Shown here piece after piece: positions 26,099 to 62,831 of a stretch of DNA of 64,000 nucleotides. A program made the position numbers and the translations under genes. The DNA lies in the NCBI GenBank assembly GCA_910585915.1, contig CAJUGF010000001.1, forward strand, positions 4,622 through 68,621, written 5' to 3'. Position 1 is the first letter of the stretch, and every line of letters starts with the position of its first letter. Under the pieces are notes generated by a model, which was not told where the DNA came from, ran no database searches, and saw nothing but the letters and a program-made list of their open reading frames with translations. The DNA is from an uncultured Bacilli bacterium (lineage in GTDB: Bacteria > Bacillota_I > Bacilli_A > RF39 > UBA660).

Positions 26099-27004
26099 AT
26101 GAGTGACCAATTTAATGAAGCAGTAACGCAAAATATGGAAAAATCTTATGAGCGTGAGGATCAATTTTTTTTAGAATATTATAATTATTTAAAACAGTAT
26201 CCCACTGTTATTTCACGATTTCACCGACTTTGTCGAAATCTTTCAAGAGATTTAAGGATTATTTTAAAAGCTGAAATTTTGCCAACTCTTTCTTTTTATG
26301 ATCAACAGAAATACTATGATATGTTATCAGATTTTGATATGCGTATTTTGGACGAAGCTTTAGATTGTATTCGTGAAATTGCAACTTCAAAAGATTCACA
26401 AAAGGAATTAAGAAAATGGGCAAAACTTCCTTGGTTTGATATTCAAAATTATGATGATGAATATTATACTGTAACTTTTTTAGGGCATCAATATTCTTTT
26501 CAATCACTTCGATTTCTTTATGGTAGTGATGTAGAGAAAATTTGTGATTTTCATCGAATGGAACATTACTCTGTTCATGATGAAGTAGGGTATGATGCAT
26601 ATGCACCTGGAAATTTGGATTATGCTTGTCATTTTTCTAGTTATCATTTTGCATTGATGCATCCAAATCTTTATGCTATGACTAGTTTATGTCCTCATAC
26701 AGTAAATGATGGTGTCTGGTATCATAGTTATAATCTGTCTGGTAATGAAAAGACAGTGTATGATGTTGCGAATGGATTTATTATGGATTATGATTGTTTT
26801 CAAAAACTTTTGGAACCAATTAATTTGGATCAAACTTTAGGTGCAAGCATTTTAGAAAGAGAAAAGGAATTACTTCAGGCAGATAATTTTTTTTACCAGA
26901 TGTATGGCGATTATTGCCCATTAAAAGGGTTTGCTTTCCAAAATTTCGATCGAATGGAACAAGCTGAACAGGCAAAACTTTTAAAAAATATTTCCAGATT
27001 TTAA
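26099..27004 (+). CDS. Hypothetical protein (Cys/His/Tyr-rich, no TM)
   Basis: RBS GGGAGGA; no recognisable domain. It occupies the slot where murD is commonly found between mraY and ftsW. Confidence 0.45.
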   Translation: MSDQFNEAVTQNMEKSYEREDQFFLEYYNYLKQYPTVISRFHRLCRNLSRDLRIILKAEILPTLSFYDQQKYYDMLSDFDMRILDEALDCIREIATSKDSQKELRKWAKLPWFDIQNYDDEYYTVTFLGHQYSFQSLRFLYGSDVEKICDFHRMEHYSVHDEVGYDAYAPGNLDYACHFSSYHFALMHPNLYAMTSLCPHTVNDGVWYHSYNLSGNEKTVYDVANGFIMDYDCFQKLLEPINLDQTLGASILEREKELLQADNFFYQMYGDYCPLKGFAFQNFDRMEQAEQAKLLKNISRF

Positions 27005-27021
27005 AAAGGGGAGGATTTTCT

Positions 27022-27837
27022 ATGACGCAGTATTCTGTGCTACCAAAAAAATATCAATTTGACCTATTACCTCAAATTGATAGCTATTCTCATTGTCGTA
27101 TTTATGACAATGAACTTATTATTAAAGAATATGAATCATGTTGTTATAATTTGTCAGTGCTTGATCAAATTATTCATTTGGATTTGCCTGGATATTCTTT
27201 TGCAGAAAGAATTTATTGTAATGAGGATTTATCTAAATTTTATCTTGTTGGTCCATTTTATAAAGATTATTGTAGTATAAGCGATGCTAATTTTATTATA
27301 TCTGATAAGGTTAATGGATTAATTGTTATGAAAAAAATGTTACTTCATTTAAAAGAGGCACATAAAAAAGGTTTTAATCCTTATGATAATCATGGAGGAA
27401 ATTATATAGTAAATTCTTTTTTGAATGTTTTAGGAATTGACTGTGATTATTCTTGTTTTCGAAAGCAATTTACTTTTGTTATTGATTCTATTCCAGCATA
27501 TTTTGAAGATTTTTTTGATAATGATATGTTTATAGATTTTCAATTTTCATCTTATTATTTGAACCTATTTGATAAGTTTCAGATGTTAGATATGTTCTTT
27601 TATTATCTTCGATTTAATGAATTTAGAAGGTATAATATTTTTGGAATTGAGGTTTTGAATCAAATTAAACCTATTTTAAGAGATATTCCTTTACCCAATA
27701 ATGTTCAAAATTATTTACAAAAGTTATTTTGTGGAATGATACCAAATTTCGATGATTATTTTATTGAAGAACTTATTGATCCTTTGATTTGTTACTATGC
27801 TAATCAAAATGTGAGAAAGAGAAAAGGAGAAGAATAA
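27022..27837 (+). CDS. Hypothetical protein with possible protein-kinase-like (PKL) fold
   Basis: RBS GGGGAGGA. HLKEAHKKGFNPYDNHGGNYIVN resembles the catalytic-loop pattern of APH/Kdo/RIO-type kinases (H..D....N.hv). The following LGIDCDYS resembles the DFG-equivalent IDxD. Tentative. Confidence 0.35.
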   Translation: MTQYSVLPKKYQFDLLPQIDSYSHCRIYDNELIIKEYESCCYNLSVLDQIIHLDLPGYSFAERIYCNEDLSKFYLVGPFYKDYCSISDANFIISDKVNGLIVMKKMLLHLKEAHKKGFNPYDNHGGNYIVNSFLNVLGIDCDYSCFRKQFTFVIDSIPAYFEDFFDNDMFIDFQFSSYYLNLFDKFQMLDMFFYYLRFNEFRRYNIFGIEVLNQIKPILRDIPLPNNVQNYLQKLFCGMIPNFDDYFIEELIDPLICYYANQNVRKRKGEE

Positions 27838-28972: not shown

Positions 28973-29072
28973 CTATAGTTATAATGATTAGATTTTTATG
29001 AGTTTTTTGAAATTTTAGTGTTGCCAAACTAACTGTTCAATGTCATAATAATTTTCGAAGGTGATTTTTAAC

Positions 29073-32000
29073 ATGAAATTAACAAAGGAACAACAAAAAT
29101 TGTGGAATGTATATCATTATGCTTTTCCCTCTATAGATCAATTTTTAGATTTTTATAATCATGCTTTTAATGATTCGAAGCAAAATGTGAAGATAAGTTT
29201 TCAACAGTTGATGCAGCAGTATTTAAAAAAACATATGAATGTTGATTTAATGATGAATTATCTTAATCAGTTGAATATCAATTATAATTCTTCTAGTCAA
29301 GAAATTCGTATTAAATTACGTCCTTTTTATCAATTATTAGATCAATTGGATTATTGTTTAGCAATGGATGATGCAGCAGTATTAATTGAGTATCCTTTGT
29401 TTCAAACTTTATTTTCTAAACTTTTTGGTCAAAATAAAATAATAGCTGAGGATCAATTTCAAAAATTGGCGAATGATAGTATTTATTTTGAAATTTTATG
29501 TCGTGTTTATTTAGATTGTCATGATATTGAAGTAGATGAATCTTTAAATAATAAAGATGATAGAACTTTATCTAAGACAAAGATTTTGACTCATGAGGAG
29601 GAAATTGAATTAGCGAAAAGAATTGAAGCTGGTGATATAAAGGCTCAAGAAACTTTTATTTTAGCAAATCAACAATTAGTTAAGTATGTTGCAAAGAGTT
29701 ATATTGGAAATGGTCTTGAATTTGATGATTTGTTTCAAGAAGGAATCATAGGACTTATGACAGCTATTCAAAAGTTTGATTATCAAAAAGGTTATAAATT
29801 TTCTACTTATGCTGTTTGGTGGATTCGTCACGCAATATATCATGCTATAAGAAAGGCTAGAGCGATTCCAGTACCAACTTATCGCGAACAAGAATATAAT
29901 CATATTATGAAGGTGCATGCTCAACTGGTGAATGAGCTTCAACGGAAACCATCTTTAGATGAATGGGCAAATCATTTAGGAATGGAGAAAGAAAGCTTGC
30001 AAGAAATAGTCAACTCTATTCCTAATGTAGTATCATTCGAAAGCAAAGTATCGAGTGAAGATGATAAAGAACTTGGGGATTTTTATGAAGATTCAAAGGC
30101 ACGTTTTGAGGAAGATGTCGTTCAAAGACAATATGTTTCGGAAATATTAAAATTGAGTAAAGAAATATTAAGTGAAAAAGAATATCAAGTTTTATTACTT
30201 CGATTTGGATTAGCTGATGGAACCAGTTATACTTTAGAAGAAGTTGGAAGAAAATTTAATGTAACAAGAGAAAGAATTCGTCAAATTGAAGCTAAGGCAT
30301 TAATAAAATTGAAGCATAGTTTGAAATATGAAAAGAATAAAACATTACATTTAGCTGAGAATGAACCTAACTTAGAAGAAGTTGGAAAAAAATTTAATGT
30401 AACGAGAGAGAGAACTCGTCAAATTGAGAACGCTATGAATGAACCTAGCTTAGAAGAAGTTGGAAATAAATTTAATGTAACAAGTGAGAGAACTTGTCAA
30501 ATTGAGAACACTATGAATGAACCTAACTTAGAAGAAGCTGAGAAAAAAATTAATGTAACAAGAGAGAGAACTTGTCAAATTGAGAACGTTATGAATGAAC
30601 CTAACTTAGAAGAAGCTGGGAAAAAAATTAATGTAACAAGAGAGAGAACTTGTCAAATTGAGAACACTATGAATGAACCTAGTTTAGAAGCGAAAAAAAA
30701 ATATACAAAGTTTGATATTCATCTTCTTCATTCTTCCCTTTCTATATCTTTACTTGTGGATTTTATTAAACTTTTTCCAAAACATGATCAAAAACTGTAT
30801 TGCTGTTTGAGAGGAATTCAGTTGTCTCAAAAAGATATCGTTCCAATAGAAGATGATTCATTTAATGATAAACAAAAGAAATATATCACTATTATTGAAA
30901 ACGATCTGAAGGCTATGGCATGTGAATATTTTTATTATATTAAAAAACGAAAATGTGATAAGGAAGTTGCTTTAAAGCATCTTGCAAAAGTTATGGTAAT
31001 AAAATTTCTTCGTTTTCGATATCCTAATTCTACACTATCTATGATTATGGATGCAGTGAAAAAACTTCCGTTAGAACAACGTCAGGCTATATATCGAGTG
31101 CATGGTGAAGATTTGTGTTCTTATTTGTTAGGTGTAGGTGTCAGACAAAAAAAATCAAGTTTGTTAAATCTTGCCTATAAAGATATTGCTGCTATTTTAA
31201 ATGAACATGAAGTGGTTCATATCAAGACAAGAAGTAATACTTTGTTTTTACTTATGGAGAAATATCCAGAGATTTCTTTAGAACAATGGATTTTAAATAT
31301 ACAATCTTTGCCAAAAAAACAAAGAGAAATTATGCAGTATGTTCATGGAGAGAGCCTCGATCAGAATCGATCTTTTTCAAGTCAAGACAAAGTGAGGCAA
31401 TATGCTAACTATCAAAATGGACTTCGAAGTTTAGAACAATTGGCAAATGGAACTAGAAGAGTTATTACACTAAAGGAACAAAAGAAAAATATGCTGTTTT
31501 TACTTATGGAGAAATATCCAGAGATTTCTTTAGAACAATGGATTTTAAATATACAATCTTTGCCAAAAAAACAAAGAGAAATTATGCAGTATGTTCATGG
31601 AGAGAGCCTCGATCAGAATCGATCTTTTTCAAGTCAAGACAAAGTGAGGCAATATGCTAACTATCAAAATGGACTTCGAAGTTTAGAACAATTGGCAAAT
31701 GGAACTAGAAAAGTTATTACACCAAAAGAAAAATTGTTCAAAATATTGAAAGTTGATAATGTTCAGATTTTAAATGAAGCATTAGAGCAACTTGAACTTT
31801 TTGAAAGGGATGTATTTTATTCTGTACATGGACAAACATTTGAAGAGTATCATGAGATTTCTAATTTTCAAGAGTATGAAAGAGTGTTTGAAAAACTAAG
31901 TGGAATAATGTTAGAAATACAAAAAGGGAAAAAGGATACCTTACTATCTTTACTTATGAAGAAGTATCCTGATATTACGAAAAAGCACTGGCATGTTTTT

Positions 32001-33080
32001 ATTAATGCTTTATCACCCAAGCAAAAGGAAGTTATTTATGAGGTAAATGGTGTAGATCTTGATGAAAGTAATTGGATTTCTAGGAATTTACCTTCCAAAA
32101 TTTATGAACGTTATTATTATGCAATTCAAAATTTGGAAGCACTAGCACAAAAAGCCTTTAATAAAACGGAGGAAAGAGATAAAAACATTATTGATGTTTA
32201 TGGAACTGAAAGAGTACGTTTTATTTTTCAATTTTTGAATAAAGAAGAATTATCTGTCTTTTTGTATCGTCATGGTGCTGATTTGAATGAATGCAATGAA
32301 TTTCCAGAACATTTAAATCATTTAAGAAATATGTATATTTGTACTATTGAAAAAATGAAAAATTTGTTAGAAATTTATACTGATTTATTGCAAGAATTTT
32401 TAGATTGTGTAGGACTTGCTTCTTTTGAAGAGGCACAGCATTTTATTTCGCTTTTAAGCATTGAAGAACAAGCAATTATTTATCAGCGGAGAGGAGAAAA
32501 ATTAAATACATTAAATTCTTTTATCTATGGTAAATCATTTGCTTATTATAAACGGCAGTATGATGATGCAGTGCAACATTTAAAAAAATTAAAGAAAGAA
32601 GATAATCAAAGAAAAGAATATAATCAAAGAAAAGAAGAAATTATTAATAGAGAAATTTTAGAATCTCAAAAGAAAATATTACTTGATGCAAAATTAAGTC
32701 AATATCAACAAAGTCTTTATTGTGAGTTTTTCCAATTATATGGAACTTTGATAAATGAATATGATTTAATGCGTGTTATTAATAAATCTCTTCTTTCTTA
32801 TACTTCTAGTGAGGGACTTTCTGTTGAAGTGTCAAGTCATTTTAAAGTTGAGACAGCGGTTTTAGAAATGTTAGTTTGTCAATATCAAATGGTGCAGAGT
32901 CAAGAATTGTTTGAGGCAATTAATAGTATTTTAAGTGTAAACTTAGCAGAAAAGTATTCATTTGTTAAAAAGAATATTATGTCTCCAGTGATTTATGCAG
33001 TGTTTCAAAAATATGTTGATCAACAGTTAATTTTTGAGGGGCTTGAAAAACCAGTTATTAAAGCTTATCAGATGAATTAA
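29073..33080 (+). CDS. Giant sigma-70-family protein: N-terminal unknown domain + complete sigma regions 2-4 + tandem region-4 repeats + ~900-aa C-terminal extension
   Basis: Residues about 175-420 carry canonical sigma regions 2.1-2.4 (DLFQEGIIGLMTAIQKFDYQKGYKFSTYAVWWIRHAI), region 3 and region 4 (LLLRFGLADGTSYTLEEVGRKFNVTRERIRQIEAKALIKLK). After that come ~4.3 in-frame 26-aa repeats (about four copies) re-copying the 4.2 helix, then multiple LPxxQRxxxxxxHGEDL-type modules. Confidence 0.8.
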   Translation: MKLTKEQQKLWNVYHYAFPSIDQFLDFYNHAFNDSKQNVKISFQQLMQQYLKKHMNVDLMMNYLNQLNINYNSSSQEIRIKLRPFYQLLDQLDYCLAMDDAAVLIEYPLFQTLFSKLFGQNKIIAEDQFQKLANDSIYFEILCRVYLDCHDIEVDESLNNKDDRTLSKTKILTHEEEIELAKRIEAGDIKAQETFILANQQLVKYVAKSYIGNGLEFDDLFQEGIIGLMTAIQKFDYQKGYKFSTYAVWWIRHAIYHAIRKARAIPVPTYREQEYNHIMKVHAQLVNELQRKPSLDEWANHLGMEKESLQEIVNSIPNVVSFESKVSSEDDKELGDFYEDSKARFEEDVVQRQYVSEILKLSKEILSEKEYQVLLLRFGLADGTSYTLEEVGRKFNVTRERIRQIEAKALIKLKHSLKYEKNKTLHLAENEPNLEEVGKKFNVTRERTRQIENAMNEPSLEEVGNKFNVTSERTCQIENTMNEPNLEEAEKKINVTRERTCQIENVMNEPNLEEAGKKINVTRERTCQIENTMNEPSLEAKKKYTKFDIHLLHSSLSISLLVDFIKLFPKHDQKLYCCLRGIQLSQKDIVPIEDDSFNDKQKKYITIIENDLKAMACEYFYYIKKRKCDKEVALKHLAKVMVIKFLRFRYPNSTLSMIMDAVKKLPLEQRQAIYRVHGEDLCSYLLGVGVRQKKSSLLNLAYKDIAAILNEHEVVHIKTRSNTLFLLMEKYPEISLEQWILNIQSLPKKQREIMQYVHGESLDQNRSFSSQDKVRQYANYQNGLRSLEQLANGTRRVITLKEQKKNMLFLLMEKYPEISLEQWILNIQSLPKKQREIMQYVHGESLDQNRSFSSQDKVRQYANYQNGLRSLEQLANGTRKVITPKEKLFKILKVDNVQILNEALEQLELFERDVFYSVHGQTFEEYHEISNFQEYERVFEKLSGIMLEIQKGKKDTLLSLLMKKYPDITKKHWHVFINALSPKQKEVIYEVNGVDLDESNWISRNLPSKIYERYYYAIQNLEALAQKAFNKTEERDKNIIDVYGTERVRFIFQFLNKEELSVFLYRHGADLNECNEFPEHLNHLRNMYICTIEKMKNLLEIYTDLLQEFLDCVGLASFEEAQHFISLLSIEEQAIIYQRRGEKLNTLNSFIYGKSFAYYKRQYDDAVQHLKKLKKEDNQRKEYNQRKEEIINREILESQKKILLDAKLSQYQQSLYCEFFQLYGTLINEYDLMRVINKSLLSYTSSEGLSVEVSSHFKVETAVLEMLVCQYQMVQSQELFEAINSILSVNLAEKYSFVKKNIMSPVIYAVFQKYVDQQLIFEGLEKPVIKAYQMN
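30358..30695 (+). repeat. In-frame tandem repeat, 78-bp unit x ~4.3, inside the giant sigma gene
   Basis: ATGAATGAACCTA(A/G)(C/T)TTAGAAGAAG ... recurs at 30435, 30513, 30591 and 30669, with a partial first copy at about 30358. It encodes NEP(N/S)LEE(V/A)GKK(F/I)NVTRERT(R/C)QIEN.M, a fragment of the region-4.2 HTH. Confidence 0.9.
31240..31745 (+). repeat. Near-perfect 252-bp tandem duplication (2 copies) inside the giant sigma gene
   Basis: A block of about 200 identical bases (AAATATCCAGAGATTTCTTTAGAACAATGG ... GGCAAATGGAACTAGAA) occurs at about 31257 and again at about 31509. It encodes LLMEKYPEISLEQWILNIQSLPKKQREIMQYVHGESLDQNRSF ... twice. Confidence 0.9.
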
Positions 33081-33201: not shown

Positions 33202-33390
33202 GTGGCTGATAAGAATATAACTTGTAAGATGTGTGGACAAGAATTTACTTTTACTGTTGGAGAACAAGAATGGTATTCAGAGCGTAATTTGAATGAACCA
33301 AAGTATTGTAAGACTTGTCGTGCAGAAAGAAGAAAACAAAAAGAAAAACAAAATAATATTCATAATGATTCGGTAAAGAAAGCTGCATAG
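33202..33390 (+). CDS. Small zinc-ribbon protein (zf-trcl-like, CxxC ... CxxC)
   Basis: RBS GAAGGAGG then GTG. CKMCGQEFTFTVGEQEWY ... CKTCR matches the probable zinc-ribbon small-protein family. Confidence 0.6.
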   Translation: MADKNITCKMCGQEFTFTVGEQEWYSERNLNEPKYCKTCRAERRKQKEKQNNIHNDSVKKAA

Positions 33391-39448: not shown

Positions 39449-40384
39449 ATGGCCGTAGTTTCTATGAGTAATCTTTTAGAAGCTGGAGTTCATTTTGGAC
39501 ATCAAACAAAAAGATGGAATCCAAAGATGAAACCTTATATCTTTGCAGCAAGAGAAGATATTTATATAATTGACTTGCAAAAGACAGCTGAAAAGCTTGA
39601 AGAAGCTTATCCAGTAGTGAAAACCATTGCTGAAAATGGTGGTACTTTTCTTTTTGTAGGTACTAAAAAACAAGCGAGTGAAGTAGCCAAAGAAGAAGCT
39701 TTAAGAAGTAATTCATTTTATGTTACTGAAAGATGGCTTGGTGGAACACTTACAAATTTCCGTACTATTCGTAGACGTGTAAAACGTTTAGAAGAAATTG
39801 AAGCAATGGAGAAAAATGGTACATTTGAAGTGTTACCAAAAAAAGAAGTTATTGGACTTAAGAAAGAATATGAAAAGTTAAATCGTTTACTTTCAGGTAT
39901 TCGTGGCATGGTTAAGATACCACAAGCTATGATTATTGTAGATCCTAAGAAGGAAATTAATGCAATTCGTGAAGCACGTAAACTTAATATTCCAGTATTT
40001 GGTTTAGTAGATACCAATTGTGATCCTGATGACGTTGATTATGTAATTCCTGGTAATGATGATGCAGTTCGTTCTGTTAAAGTTGTTTTAGGAGTTTTAA
40101 ATAATGCTATTTGTGAAGCCAATCATTTAGAAATGGTTGATTATGTTACAGAAGAGGATAAGAAAAAAGTAAAAGAAGTGAAGGATGAAGTAAAAACTTC
40201 TGATGTTATGGGGACTGCTTTGCAAGAAGAAAAGAAGGAAGTAAAGGAAGTAGCAAAAGAAGATAACAATGAAGATCTTTCTAAAAAAACTTTGACTGAG
40301 CTAAAAGCTATGGCGAAAGAAGCAAATGTTAAAGGGTATAGTACTATGAAAAAGGATGAACTTATTGCATCTTTAACAAAATAA
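39449..40384 (+). CDS. rpsB: 30S ribosomal protein S2 with Lys/Glu-rich C-terminal extension
   Basis: [32 protein letters not shown]; RBS AAAGGAGG; about 60 extra residues ([14 protein letters not shown] ...) relative to typical S2. Confidence 0.95.
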
Positions 40385-49686: not shown

Positions 49687-49766
49687 CAGTTTTTTAATTA
49701 TTACTGGATATTTTTGTATCAGTGTGATATATTCATTTTAGGATAGAGATGGATCAAGGTGAGATT

Positions 49767-51389
49767 ATGAATAAGAAGAAGGTATGGTTATTTTCTGGAA
49801 TTATAGGGATATTATTATTATCAATGGGAATTAGTTTTGCATTATGGTTTCAAGTTTTTGAACAACAGGATACCAATGTTGTTCAATCTGCATGTTTTAA
49901 AGTAGAATTTACAGAAGGAAATGGAATTTCTTTAAGTAATGAGTTTCCAGTTTCTGATTCAGAAGGTTTACTTAAGACTCCTTATACTTTTTCTATAAAG
50001 AATATTTGTGATGATAGTGCAAGTTATCAAATTAATTTAGAATCGTTGATTCCTGAAGGAACGAGATTACCAGATCAATATTTAAAAGTTAATTTACAAG
50101 AAAATAATATATCAAGGGTAACAACAAAATTAGACAAGGAAGTTAATGTAGAAATGGAAACCGCAGTAACTATTAGTGGTGCTACTGATGCTTATAAATT
50201 ATATACAGGAATTTTAAATCCAAACGAAACCATAGAATTTAGTTTGAGATTATGGATGGATCATACGGTTACACAGCATGATGAAAATAGTATGAATGCT
50301 AATTTTTCAGCAAAGATTAATGTAATTACTGGATATTATCAGGATAGACGTGGTACTATGATGGCTGTTGTTTATAATCAACCTGTTGCTTATTTTTCAT
50401 ATCGAGAAGATATTACTAAAGTTATTATAGAAGATGTAATGGAACCAAAAGAAACTGAATTATTTTGGGATGTATCTGAGAATCAAGATGGTAGTGTTAT
50501 GAGTTATTTAATACCAAATGATGATAGTACAACTTACACTTTGTATTTGCAATCGGATGGTGGTATTAAGGCTAATCCTAAATCATCCCATTTGTTTTAT
50601 CGTTTTTCTAAGTTAGAGACTATTGAGGGATTGGAGCATTTAGATACTAGTAATGTTACAAGGATGAATGCTATGTTTTATGAGTGCTATAATCTACAAG
50701 AACTTGATTTAAAAACTTTTGATACTAGTAAAGTTATCGATATGTCTTTACTTTTTGCTGATTGTCAAAAGTTAACAAAGCTAGAAGTGGGATATTTAGA
50801 TACTAGTAATGTTACTAGTATGAAATCAATGTTTTATGGTTGCAGAGTTTTAACCAGTTTAGATTTAAGTCATTTTGATACCAGTAAGGTAACTGATATG
50901 CTTGGAATGTTTTCATATTGTTCTAAATTAAAATCTCTTGATTTAAGTCATTTTGATACAAGTAATGTTACTAGTATGGAATCAATGTTTTATTCTTGTG
51001 TCGAGTTAGTATCTTTAACTTTTGGAGATTCCTTTTTCACTAACAATGTTTTGAATATGAGTAAAATGTTTTATAGCTGTTCTAGTATTACTGATTTAAA
51101 CTTATCTGGTTTTGACACAAGTAAAGTTACTACTATGGGGGGAATGTTTGTATATTGTATTTCATTAGAGAAATTAGATTTAAGTTCTTTTAATACACAA
51201 AATGTTTCAAGTTATAATTCATATCATTTAGATTCAAATTATGGAATGTTTTATGGATGTTCTAAATTATCTAATATTATTTATGGAGATAATTTTGTTT
51301 ATAAGGAAGGTGCTCATGTTGATTCTATGTTTGATCGATGCCCTGCTAATCATCCATCACATGAATCATGGAATGGAGTGTCTTTCTAG
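49767..51389 (+). CDS. Surface protein: paralog-family N-domain A fused to BspA-type leucine-rich repeats
   Basis: N-terminus closely parallels the 64..1548 protein (CFK.EF..G.GI.L ... YQINLE.L ... YLKVNL). The C-terminal half has about 8 repeats of the LD(L/T)S.FDTSNVT.M..MFY.C pattern, the BspA/LRR_5 signature. Confidence 0.75.
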   Translation: MNKKKVWLFSGIIGILLLSMGISFALWFQVFEQQDTNVVQSACFKVEFTEGNGISLSNEFPVSDSEGLLKTPYTFSIKNICDDSASYQINLESLIPEGTRLPDQYLKVNLQENNISRVTTKLDKEVNVEMETAVTISGATDAYKLYTGILNPNETIEFSLRLWMDHTVTQHDENSMNANFSAKINVITGYYQDRRGTMMAVVYNQPVAYFSYREDITKVIIEDVMEPKETELFWDVSENQDGSVMSYLIPNDDSTTYTLYLQSDGGIKANPKSSHLFYRFSKLETIEGLEHLDTSNVTRMNAMFYECYNLQELDLKTFDTSKVIDMSLLFADCQKLTKLEVGYLDTSNVTSMKSMFYGCRVLTSLDLSHFDTSKVTDMLGMFSYCSKLKSLDLSHFDTSNVTSMESMFYSCVELVSLTFGDSFFTNNVLNMSKMFYSCSSITDLNLSGFDTSKVTTMGGMFVYCISLEKLDLSSFNTQNVSSYNSYHLDSNYGMFYGCSKLSNIIYGDNFVYKEGAHVDSMFDRCPANHPSHESWNGVSF

Positions 51390-61521: not shown

Positions 61522-61601
61522 AGAGAGTAAGATAATATTTTTTAGAAGAACTCTTGTTATTCAAATCTTTTTCTTTTATAATACTTTTCGAGGTGGGGGG
61601 A

Positions 61602-62831
61602 ATGGTTTCTAATAATAGCATGTTTTCTTTTTCTAATTTAGAAACTGATTATTTAACGATGATACACGGTATTCCGCTTCTTTCTTCTAATCAACTACTT
61701 GCATTGTTTTCTGAATATAAAAGTACATTAAATGAAGATATTTTGAAGCAAATTGTGGAGCATAACTTGCGATTAGTACCTGGAATCGCGAAATTGTATT
61801 TGAATAAATGTAATCATTTGAAATTCATGGATCTTATTCAAGAGGGAAATTATGGTCTTATGAAAGCAGCACGATCCTTTGATCCAAATTATGGTACTGC
61901 TTTTTCCACATTTGCTACTTCTTATATTCATGGATATATTAAGAATGCAATTGCAATGCAAGAGCGTTTGATTAAAGAAGATCCACGCTTTGTTAGTCAA
62001 TTGATGCGATATCAAAAACTAAAAAGGAAATATCAAAATTGTGAAGAGGAAGCACCTTCTGATGAAGAATTATGTTCTATATTAGGTGTTTCTTTTGATA
62101 CTTTACGATTGTTTGAAGAAGTTAATGTTAGAAAAATTACAAGTCTTGATGCCAAACTTAAAGAAGATGCTGATGATTGTTTGCTTGATGTCATTTCAAG
62201 TGCGGAAGATGTGTCTACTGAGATGGTTGATAATTATATGGATCAAGAAATTATGGTTTTATGTAAATGGCTTTTAAAATCTGTTTCATATTTTGTGTTA
62301 TATTATCAATATTTTTCGAAGAAAGTAATACTTTTAAGTGATCTTGGAAATCTTATGGGGAGTAGACGTCAGAATGCTTCTCAATATCTTAAAAAAGCAA
62401 TTCAACAACTAAAACCTTATTTTACGTCTTCTTCACTTTATTCTGAAACTTTACAAGCTATTAAAACGAGGGAAGGTAAGAATTATAGTTTTTTATCTTT
62501 GAAACCAATTTCTCCTCAAGATATTACTAAATATCTTTATGCTTATCCTTTTTTGATGCCTATAGAACAGAAAGTGCTTTATTGGGAATTGTTTGGAAAG
62601 TATGAAAGAGAATGTCCTTTTGTTTATGATTTACTTTGTATGAGTAAAGGTGAATATTATTCAACTTTGTCTTCTTTACAGTTTAGATTAAAAGAAATAT
62701 TCCAGAATTATAAAATGTATAAAGACTATGAAAAACAATGTATTGAAACTCATAAAGCGAAAATTTATAAACTTGATTTGCATTATGAGTTAGTAGATAA
62801 TAAGCTTGTTAAATCTTTTAATTCAAAGTAA
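61602..62831 (+). CDS. Atypical sigma-70-family factor with ~150-aa C-terminal extension
   Basis: RBS GAGGTGGGGGG. Region 2 (LRLVPGIAKLYLNKCNHLKFMDLIQEGNYGLMKAARSFDPNYGTAFSTFATSYIHGYI). Region-4-like HTH (SRRQNASQYLKKAIQQLK). The C-terminal module (DITKYLYAYPFLMPIEQKVLYWELFGKYE) is shared with the 60718 protein. Confidence 0.7.
   Translation: MVSNNSMFSFSNLETDYLTMIHGIPLLSSNQLLALFSEYKSTLNEDILKQIVEHNLRLVPGIAKLYLNKCNHLKFMDLIQEGNYGLMKAARSFDPNYGTAFSTFATSYIHGYIKNAIAMQERLIKEDPRFVSQLMRYQKLKRKYQNCEEEAPSDEELCSILGVSFDTLRLFEEVNVRKITSLDAKLKEDADDCLLDVISSAEDVSTEMVDNYMDQEIMVLCKWLLKSVSYFVLYYQYFSKKVILLSDLGNLMGSRRQNASQYLKKAIQQLKPYFTSSSLYSETLQAIKTREGKNYSFLSLKPISPQDITKYLYAYPFLMPIEQKVLYWELFGKYERECPFVYDLLCMSKGEYYSTLSSLQFRLKEIFQNYKMYKDYEKQCIETHKAKIYKLDLHYELVDNKLVKSFNSK

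What the first reader, a model, noticed from the sequence alone, without database searches (positions are those of the whole stretch)
30358..30695. 78-bp in-frame tandem repeats that re-copy the sigma region-4.2 recognition helix
About 4.3 copies of a 26-aa unit (NEPNLEE(V/A)GKK(F/I)NVTRERT(R/C)QIEN(A/T/V)M) follow the authentic region 4 (YTLEEVGRKFNVTRERIRQIEAKAL). They amount to serial duplications of the HTH fragment with point changes (R to C, F to I). Tandem coding repeats of this size are classic substrates for slipped-strand or recombinational length variation. Different copy numbers would alter the spacing between the sigma core and the C-terminal tail, or create multiple DNA-binding helices.
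Basis: seen in the sequence. Interest (0 to 1): 0.7.

Follow-up and report, generated by a model that had tools for sequence, protein, structure and literature searches.

The report
Partial sigma-helix repeats in a giant sigma
A 1,335-residue sigma-70-type transcription factor from an uncultured gut bacterium carries four and a bit recent copies of part of its own DNA-reading helix in a flexible tether; the copies look like drifting spacer rather than extra DNA readers, and the more unusual feature is the protein's tail of seven degenerate sigma-domain-4 copies.

Summary
A 78-bp unit repeats 4.3 times in frame at 30359-30690 with 92% matches. Its core is 86-93% identical in DNA to the gene's own region 4.2 at 30234-30289.

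- Each unit copies only the 4.2 helix-turn-helix, without region 4.1.
- Core and DNA-contact residues are lost (I to T in every unit, R to C in three).
- Ten of 11 variable sites change the amino acid.
- AlphaFold gives the units pLDDT 30-47, against about 90 for the flanking domains.
- The units are absent from every orthologue examined. They stretch a normally 25-40 aa tether to about 130 aa.

A second assembly has one unit fewer and also lacks a 252-bp repeat copy. It is otherwise identical over 23.3 kb, so real variation and short-read collapse cannot be separated.

My reading is a young, lineage-specific, near-neutral duplication in a tether. It is the newest layer of a gene family that grows by copying sigma domain 4.

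The parts
29073..33080 (+). Giant sigma-70-family gene of 1,335 aa from ATG 29073. The ORF tool's GTG at 29061 lies inside the GAAGGTGA ribosome-binding site.
   Evidence: ORF list. Identical protein P0001 starts MKLTKEQ. Pfam regions 1.2, 2, 3 and 4. Best NCBIfam model is RpoD PRK09210, 293 bits against a 572-bit cut-off.
29073..29567 (+). N-terminal domain shared with close relatives, about 165 aa, where primary sigmas carry region 1.1.
   Evidence: No Pfam hit. The N-terminal sequence is visibly conserved in P0003-P0008.
29568..30116 (+). Sigma regions 1.2 (29568-29636), 2 (29658-29861) and 3 (29895-30116).
   Evidence: Pfam PF00140 3.9e-7, PF04542 1.6e-22, PF04539 3.6e-15.
30168..30317 (+). 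Authentic sigma region 4. Its 4.2 segment at 30234-30289 (LEEVGRKFNVTRERIRQIE) is the source of the repeats.
   Evidence: Pfam PF04545, residues 370-419. Repeat family D3. AlphaFold pLDDT about 90.
30359..30690 (+). The finding: a 78-bp in-frame array with four full units (30360-30671) and a partial fifth. Each unit is about 58 nt of region 4.2 plus about 20 nt copied from the tether tail (GCTGAGAATGAACCTAAC).
   Evidence: TRF. Unit sequences. Alignment of units with the source. pLDDT 30-47. Absent from orthologues.
30693..30701 (+). A9 homopolymer immediately after the array, at the junction with the C-terminal extension.
   Evidence: Loss or gain of one A gives a 582- or 551-aa product without the tail. 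Only 4 runs of 9 or more occur in the window. The tract is not conserved in L083 or L085.
30702..31034 (+). Conserved 'head' of the C-terminal extension (YTKFDIH...RFRYPN).
   Evidence: Conserved in P0003, P0004, P0005 and P0007. pLDDT about 90 at its start. No Pfam hit.
31035..32591 (+). Seven sigma-domain-4-like modules of about 60 aa each: 31035-31202, 31272-31448, 31524-31700, 31770-31910, 31974-32147, 32199-32372, 32421-32591.
31243..31730 (+). 252-bp x 1.9 tandem repeat (98% matches), a very recent duplication of one whole module.
   Evidence: TRF. Modules 2 and 3 are identical in protein. There is a single copy in the other assembly.
32587..32638 (+). 18-bp x 2.9 repeat (NQRKE...) in a charged, helical-looking stretch after the last module.
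   Evidence: TRF. P0004 has one copy.
32592..33077 (+). Conserved C-terminal tail domain (LLDAKL...YQM...).
   Evidence: Conserved across P0003-P0008. No Pfam hit.
33202..33390 (+). 62-aa zinc treble-clef protein. It is a conserved downstream neighbour in the close orthologues.
   Evidence: PF13451 9.6e-17. Same position next to P0003 and P0004.

Best explanation
The array is a young, lineage-specific, in-frame tandem duplication. Its unit is a fragment of the gene's own region 4.2 helix-turn-helix plus the end of the following tether.

Inferred history:
- Unequal recombination or slippage between TTAGAAG in region 4.2 and TTAGAAG at the tether's end duplicated 138 nt.
- The second copy lost about 60 nt, giving a 78-nt unit.
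- That unit was then re-duplicated stepwise toward the 3' end. U1 is closest to the source. U2-U4 share R to C. U3 and U4 share V to A and F to I.

The units have since drifted without detectable protein-level constraint. They do not form extra sigma-4 domains. In practice they lengthen a flexible tether between the real domain 4 and the C-terminal extension, from about 30 aa to about 130 aa.

Shown: the repeats, their origin from region 4.2, their absence from orthologues, the lack of purifying selection, and the low fold confidence.
Inferred: the order of events, near-neutrality, and the spacer role.

The host gene belongs to a large unannotated group of proteins that carry arrays of degenerate sigma-domain-4 modules. 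This array, the 252-bp repeat and the 18-bp repeat are the latest products of that gene's tendency to duplicate internally.
For: - Source and units are 86-93% identical in DNA. Spacing is 138 nt, then 78 nt three times.
- The inter-unit junction (GCTATGAATGAACCTAGC) matches the unique tether tail before unit 1 (GCTGAGAATGAACCTAAC) at 15 of 18 positions.
- Ten of 11 variable sites among the units are nonsynonymous. Pairwise dN is roughly equal to dS, though the numbers are small.
- The units match only profile positions 24-44 of a region-4 HMM.
- AlphaFold gives pLDDT 30-47 across the units, against about 90 for sigma-4 and the head domain in the same model.
- Orthologues P0003, P0004, P0005 and P0007 go from region 4 to the FDIH head through 25-40 aa.
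- In the nearer relatives, the distance from sigma-4 end to first module is 122-141 aa. Here it is 238 aa.
- Of 155 module-bearing proteins examined, only P0001 and P0002 have tandem partial-4.2 hits.
- The three strongest high-identity tandem repeats in the 64 kb are all in this gene.
- Module number varies from 2 to 8 among relatives and reaches 19 elsewhere.
Against: - The AlphaFold alignment had no homologous rows over the units, so low confidence is partly expected.
- dN/dS rests on 11 sites.
- Persistence of four diverged units with an intact frame could mean the extra length is useful.
- A copy-number difference exists between two assemblies of one clone, which fits a less passive, variable element.
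- No expression or protein data exist for this uncultured organism.
Confidence: 0.68

Rival explanations
1. The array is a population-level length switch. Copy number of the 78-bp unit, and of the 252-bp module repeat, changes often by slippage or unequal recombination. This would tune the reach between sigma-4 and the tail and so create heterogeneity in sigma activity.
For: Contig SRR5927688_543 (L001, P0002) is identical to the window over 23.3 kb. The only differences are exactly one 78-bp unit and one 252-bp unit, with in-register U3/U4 and copy1/copy2 hybrids. The gene holds three separate in-frame repeats.
Against: Units differ by 4-12%, and frequent turnover would homogenise them. Both deletions sit in stretches identical between copies, which is what a de Bruijn short-read assembler collapses. 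Only two sequences of this species exist in the databases searched. All units are multiples of 3, so there is no on/off switching.
Confidence: 0.15
2. The units are functional extra recognition helices or sigma-4.2 mimics. They would bind DNA upstream of -35, compete for a sigma-4.2 partner, or serve as donor cassettes for gene conversion into the real region 4.2.
For: The motif VTRER.(R/C)QIE is largely retained, including the R, E and Q positions that contact the -35 element in sigma-70 (from my own knowledge of E. coli R584, E585, R588 and Q589). DNA identity to the source is 86-93% over 56 nt, enough for homologous exchange.
Against: There is no region 4.1 partner helix in the units. The core Ile becomes Thr in every unit, and R588-equivalent becomes Cys in three. 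One unit carries R to S. The C-terminal half of the helix is replaced and ends in Pro. There is no purifying selection, the model has low confidence, and the units are not conserved in any relative.
Confidence: 0.05
3. The array, or its copy number in this window, is an assembly artefact of a metagenome-assembled genome.
For: The window matches MAG GCA_949518705.1. Repeats are the classic place for assembly errors, and another assembly gives a different count.
Against: Each unit has its own diagnostic substitutions and the frame is intact. U1, U2 and the U3/U4 hybrid are reproduced exactly in the second assembly. The 4.3-copy protein is on record from two contigs, of 73,850 and 73,821 bases. 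Collapse is a far commoner error than expansion.
Confidence: 0.07

Closest known systems
Region 4.2 helix-turn-helix of primary and primary-like sigma-70 factors (RpoD/SigA; Pfam PF04545)
   Same: The units derive from it by DNA duplication (86-93% identity). They keep most of LEEVG..(F/I)NVTRER..QIE.
   Different: They carry only half of the domain, with no region 4.1. Core and contact residues are mutated, no confident fold is predicted, and they lie outside the sigma core in a tether.
Sigma factors with C-terminal extensions, such as ECF groups with fused sensor domains (for example SigG1 with SnoaL_2, PMC7730460; OrbS, PMC9023288) and clostridial SigI
   Same: A sigma core is followed by extra C-terminal sequence that probably modulates activity.
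   Different: Here the core is primary-like, with regions 1.2-4. The extension is about 900 aa and is built from repeated sigma-domain-4-like modules, not from a sensor or anti-sigma-binding domain of a described type.
Sigma mimicry by PhyR (a sigma-like domain used as a decoy for the anti-sigma factor NepR)
   Different: There is no receiver domain, no known partner, and the modules are arrays fused to a complete sigma. This is an analogy only and was not tested.
In-frame coding tandem repeats (VNTR-type) that vary in length, as in bacterial surface proteins and contingency loci
   Same: A unit of tens of bp, a multiple of three, head to tail in a coding region. One possible copy-number difference was seen.
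   Different: The protein is a cytoplasmic transcription factor. The units are 4-12% diverged. The variation is not established.

Membership tests
Sigma-70 family | Regions 2, 3 and 4 (and region 1.2 for groups 1 and 2) present in order | tested here: met
   PF00140 3.9e-7, PF04542 1.6e-22, PF04539 3.6e-15, PF04545 7.6e-33.
Housekeeping RpoD/SigA (NCBIfam equivalog PRK09210) | Score above the curated equivalog cut-off | tested here: not met
   293 bits against a 572-bit cut-off. The RpoD box is altered: WWIRHAIYHAIRKARAIPVP instead of [23 protein letters not shown] (the canonical sequence is from my own knowledge). More distant relatives P0006 and P0008 keep the canonical box.
Housekeeping RpoD/SigA | It is the only primary-like sigma of the genome | not testable with these tools
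   Only 64 kb is available. A second, more divergent sigma-70 gene lies at 61554-62831, and no canonical sigA is in the window.
Complete sigma domain 4 (DNA-binding helix-turn-helix), applied to the 26-aa units | Region 4.1 helices plus the 4.2 helix-turn-helix | tested here: not met
   The units match only profile positions 24-44 of a region-4 HMM.
Complete sigma domain 4, applied to the 26-aa units | Conserved core and -35 contact residues | tested here: not met
   I to T in all units, R to C in U2-U4, R to S in U2, and AKAL replaced by N(A/T/V)MN. Residue roles are from my own knowledge of sigma-70.
Complete sigma domain 4, applied to the 26-aa units | Confidently predicted fold | tested here: inconclusive
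   pLDDT 30-47 with patchy helices, but the alignment had no rows covering the units.
Hypervariable or contingency tandem repeat | Copy number differs among strains or within a population | tested here: inconclusive
   4.3 versus 3.3 units in two assemblies of one clone. This cannot be distinguished from short-read collapse, and no further sequences of the species were found.
Hypervariable or contingency tandem repeat | Near-identical units, the signature of frequent turnover | tested here: not met
   92% matches overall, with 3-9 differences per 78-nt pair.
Sigma-domain-4-like module array (undescribed; defined here), applied to the C-terminal extension | Repeated modules of about 60 aa with the L..L...QR..IY..HG..L motif and a sigma-4 fold | tested here: met

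The most novel reading that the evidence does not exclude
The tether repeats and the 252-bp module repeat really do vary in copy number within populations of this bacterium. If so, a sigma factor itself would be a length-variable locus. Recombination among sigma-4-derived repeats would continually retune the distance to, and number of, degenerate sigma-4 domains hanging off RNA polymerase. This gene would then be a live snapshot of how the undescribed poly-sigma-4 class builds its tail.
Probability: 0.12. Interest if true: 0.75.

Novelty: new variant of a known kind. Interest (0 to 1): 0.48.

Why it matters
Taken alone, the 78-bp array is a small evolutionary curiosity: a transcription factor that has copied part of its own promoter-reading helix into a tether. 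It matters mainly as a pointer to the host protein.

That protein is a primary-like sigma factor with an unannotated N-terminal domain and a tail of seven sigma-domain-4-like modules. The same module occurs in hundreds of unannotated protein clusters, up to 19 per protein. About half of those examined are fused to a complete sigma.

I found no description of this architecture in four full-text searches of the paper library held here. The Pfam and NCBIfam scans of this protein returned no dedicated model for the module; Pfam gave only a weak, sub-threshold partial match to region 4.

If the tail acts on RNA polymerase, on anti-sigma-like partners or on upstream DNA, it would be a new way of regulating sigma activity. 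The recent duplications in this gene show that the array is still evolving.

Tried and rejected
- **GTDB representative genomes** (family-specific peptide patterns). No relative was found, so the species and its near relatives are not among the representatives.
- **JGI metagenome contigs.** The protein patterns found nothing. A 22-nt unit pattern gave five chance matches only. No extra alleles were available for counting copies.
- **Word-indexed protein search with the C-terminal alignment.** It returned only 5 proteins and suggested a tiny family. The exhaustive HMM search overturned this with 434 representatives.
- **Word-indexed search with the repeat peptide.** It returned only short RpoD fragments, some apparently chimeric, and did not even list P0001. 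It is therefore not a valid negative.
- **Source names.** Cluster look-up gave none. A search for the accessions in papers gave nothing.
- **Literature searches** for multi-region-4 or repeat-bearing sigma factors found nothing relevant.
- **Rfam** on the whole window gave no hits, so there is no RNA element under the repeats.
- **Promoter and terminator scan.** Counts were at the shuffle expectation. The one terminator-like hairpin inside the array is on the minus strand and was ignored.
- **Giant sigma near rpsB.** I checked the closest genomes found through RpsB and found none within 10 kb.
- **Phase switch at the A9 tract.** I considered it, but the tract is not conserved in orthologues, so it is recorded only as a note.

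Full report
**1. The observation**

Tandem Repeats Finder reports a 78-bp period at 30359-30690, with 4.3 copies, 92% matches, no indels and score 545. The array lies in frame inside a single long ORF, 29061-33080 on the + strand.

The likely start is ATG 29073, preceded by GAAGGTGA. It gives the 1,335-aa protein P0001, which is on record for MAG GCA_949518705.1.

Codon-aligned, the units are:

| Unit | Sequence |
|---|---|
| U1 | NEPNLEEVGKKFNVTRERTRQIENAM |
| U2 | NEPSLEEVGNKFNVTSERTCQIENTM |
| U3 | NEPNLEEAEKKINVTRERTCQIENVM |
| U4 | NEPNLEEAGKKINVTRERTCQIENTM |
| U5 (partial) | NEPSLE |

The gene's own region 4.2 DNA (30234-30289, LEEVGRKFNVTRERIRQIE) is 93, 89, 86 and 88% identical to the four units. 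A region-4 HMM built from 112 unrelated sigma factors hits each unit, but only at profile positions 24-44.

**2. The host gene**

Pfam finds sigma-70 regions 1.2, 2, 3 and 4 at ORF residues 170-419. The best NCBIfam model is the firmicute RpoD equivalog, but it scores 293 bits against a 572-bit cut-off. The protein is primary-like but not a canonical SigA.

About 165 residues precede region 1.2, and about 900 follow region 4. Neither part has a Pfam match.

The window is 30% G+C. Its RpsB is closest to uncultured gut and rumen 'Tenericutes', Bacilli and Erysipelotrichaceae MAGs, at 59-73% identity.

The gene sits in the cell-division and cell-wall cluster. The order is PBP2B, mraY, two unknown genes, ftsW, the sigma gene, a 62-aa zinc treble-clef protein, murG, murB, divIB. 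The closest orthologues keep this order (P0003, P0004). More distant relatives (P0006, P0007, P0008) instead follow a tad/flp pilus operon and precede ruvAB.

**3. The C-terminal extension is an array of sigma-domain-4-like modules**

I started from the 84-aa unit of a second repeat in the gene (252 bp x 1.9, 31243-31730, 98% matches). An iterated HMM then found modules of about 60 aa in the relatives:

| Protein | Modules |
|---|---|
| Window protein | 7 |
| P0003 | 8 |
| P0004 | 6 |
| P0005 | 7 |
| P0006 | 4 |
| P0007 | 2 |
| P0008 | 3 |

Four lines of evidence tie the module to sigma domain 4.
- Its first half matches sigma region 4.1 (hhalign probability 81%, P 1.2e-5 over 26 columns).
- The module HMM also touches the genuine 4.1 of unrelated sigmas at E 1e-4 to 1e-3.
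- AlphaFold on a 36-sequence module alignment gives a four-helix model with pLDDT 92.4 and pTM 0.79.

In the model, the first helix of the helix-turn-helix is replaced by a loop at residues 40-53. Canonical DNA reading is therefore doubtful. This last point is my inference.

An exhaustive HMM search of 1.84 billion representatives finds 434 proteins at E <= 1e-3 and 193 at E <= 1e-10, with up to 19 matched stretches each. Of the 155 I examined, 70 carry a sigma region 2. In most of these, regions 2 and 4 lie N-terminal to the array; in a few (for example P0140, P0222, P0244) the modules come first. In other members, Pfam sums many partial region-4 matches (profile positions 1-20) to whole-protein E-values as low as 6.8e-33.

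This is a sizeable family with no source annotation and no dedicated model among the Pfam and NCBIfam hits. The four literature searches found no description of it.

**4. Where the 78-bp array sits and how it arose**

In orthologues the sequence runs from the end of region 4 to a conserved head (…FDIH…) through a 25-40 aa tether with no repeats. In the nearer relatives, the distance from the end of sigma-4 to the first module is 122-141 aa. In the window protein it is 238 aa. Among the 155 proteins, only P0001 and P0002 show tandem partial-4.2 hits. The array is therefore a lineage-specific insertion in the tether.

Each unit consists of about 58 nt of region 4.2 plus about 20 nt matching the unique tether tail before unit 1 (GCTGAGAATGAACCTAAC against GCTATGAATGAACCTAGC, 15 of 18). 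The source lies 138 nt upstream of unit 1. The array ends in TTAGAAG, the same heptamer that begins the copied 4.2 segment.

The simplest history, which is inferred, has three steps:
- a 138-nt tandem duplication between the two TTAGAAG sites;
- loss of about 60 nt from the second copy;
- stepwise re-duplication of the resulting 78-nt unit.

The pattern of shared substitutions supports growth toward the 3' end. I to T is present in all units, R to C in U2-U4, and V to A and F to I in U3-U4. U3 and U4 differ at only 3 sites.

**5. Are the units functional helices?**

Four observations argue that they are not.
- Ten of the 11 variable sites among U1-U4 change the amino acid. Pairwise dN (0.05-0.14) is about equal to dS (0-0.15). 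The numbers are small, but there is no sign of the strong conservation the genuine 4.2 shows between orthologues.
- The units lack region 4.1.
- From my own knowledge of sigma-70, the Ile in RERIRQ is a core residue and the following Arg contacts the -35 element. The Ile is Thr in every unit and the Arg is Cys in three. The end of the helix (AKAL) is replaced by N(A/T/V)MNEP.
- AlphaFold on ORF residues 345-600 gives pLDDT near 90 for sigma-4 and for the head domain, but 30-47 with patchy helices across the units.

One caveat applies to the last point. The alignment had no rows covering the units, so low confidence there is partly expected.

The best reading is a flexible spacer. 'Multiple DNA-binding helices' is not supported.

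**6. Is the copy number variable?**

The only other sequence of this species in 5.8 billion proteins is P0002, on ENA contig SRR5927688_543. That contig has no mismatch with the window over 23.3 kb, apart from two in-register deletions:
- one 78-bp unit, leaving a U3/U4 hybrid;
- one 252-bp unit.

Real unequal recombination would look like this. So would repeat collapse by a short-read assembler, because both breakpoints fall in stretches that are identical between copies. Two deletions in an otherwise identical clone make me lean toward collapse.

The 4-12% divergence between units also argues against rapid turnover. No further alleles could be found. The question stays open and can be settled from raw reads.

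**7. Verdict**

It is probably wrong on extra DNA-binding helices and on the array being a classic hypervariable locus.

The array is best explained as a young, near-neutral duplication that lengthens a tether. Its main value is that it flags an undescribed sigma-70 architecture: a primary-like sigma with a poly-sigma-4-like tail that is still growing by internal duplication. The three strongest high-identity tandem repeats in this 64-kb window all lie in this one gene.

Noticed in passing
window 31243-31730: A 252-bp x 1.9 tandem repeat (98% matches) duplicates one whole sigma-4-like module, making modules 2 and 3 identical in protein. The other assembly of the same clone has a single copy.
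   Followed up: yes
window 30693-30701: An A9 run lies directly after the repeat array. Losing or gaining one A would stop translation at 582 or 551 aa and give a sigma without its tail. Only four runs of 9 or more occur in 64 kb. The tract is not conserved in orthologues L083 and L085.
   Followed up: partly
window 32587-32638: An 18-bp x 2.9 in-frame repeat (NQRKE-type) lies in the charged stretch after the last module. It is the third tandem repeat in the same gene.
   Followed up: partly
window 61554-62831: This is a second, more divergent sigma-70-family gene (425 aa; region 2 by Pfam; best NCBIfam scores near 115 bits). Its C-terminal extension of about 130 aa contains a motif (PIEQKVLYWELFGK) that resembles the sigma-4-like module but falls below the HMM threshold.
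   Followed up: partly
window 50794-50993 (ORF 49749-51389): Another 78-bp period repeat (2.6 copies, 70% matches) belongs to a DUF285 / leucine-rich-repeat protein (PF03382, 2.1e-46). It is an ordinary protein-level repeat, unrelated to the sigma array.
   Followed up: yes
window 39449-40384: Ribosomal protein S2 is 311 aa, with a lysine/glutamate-rich C-terminal extension carrying a Rho_N hit. The extension is shared only with the closest uncultured Bacilli and 'Tenericutes' MAGs (matches over residues 1-309/311, against 1-230 elsewhere).
   Followed up: partly
L086, L092-L095 (relatives P0006, P0007, P0008): More distant members of the giant-sigma group lie directly downstream of a tad/flp pilus operon (sortase, Flp, TadE, a ParA-like ATPase, T2SSE, two T2SSF) and upstream of ruvAB, not in the cell-division cluster.
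   Followed up: partly
window 26099-27837: Two conserved genes (301 and 271 aa) between mraY and ftsW have no Pfam or NCBIfam match. One is also present next to the orthologous sigma genes (L083, L085).
   Followed up: no
P0006 residues 623-672: One relative carries a second, complete region 4 (LSQREYEVLELRFGLKDGKKRSIDEIGRVF...) between the real sigma-4 and the module array. It looks like an intermediate between a true sigma-4 and the degenerate modules. P0231, P0233 and P0242 also have extra region-4 hits.
   Followed up: partly
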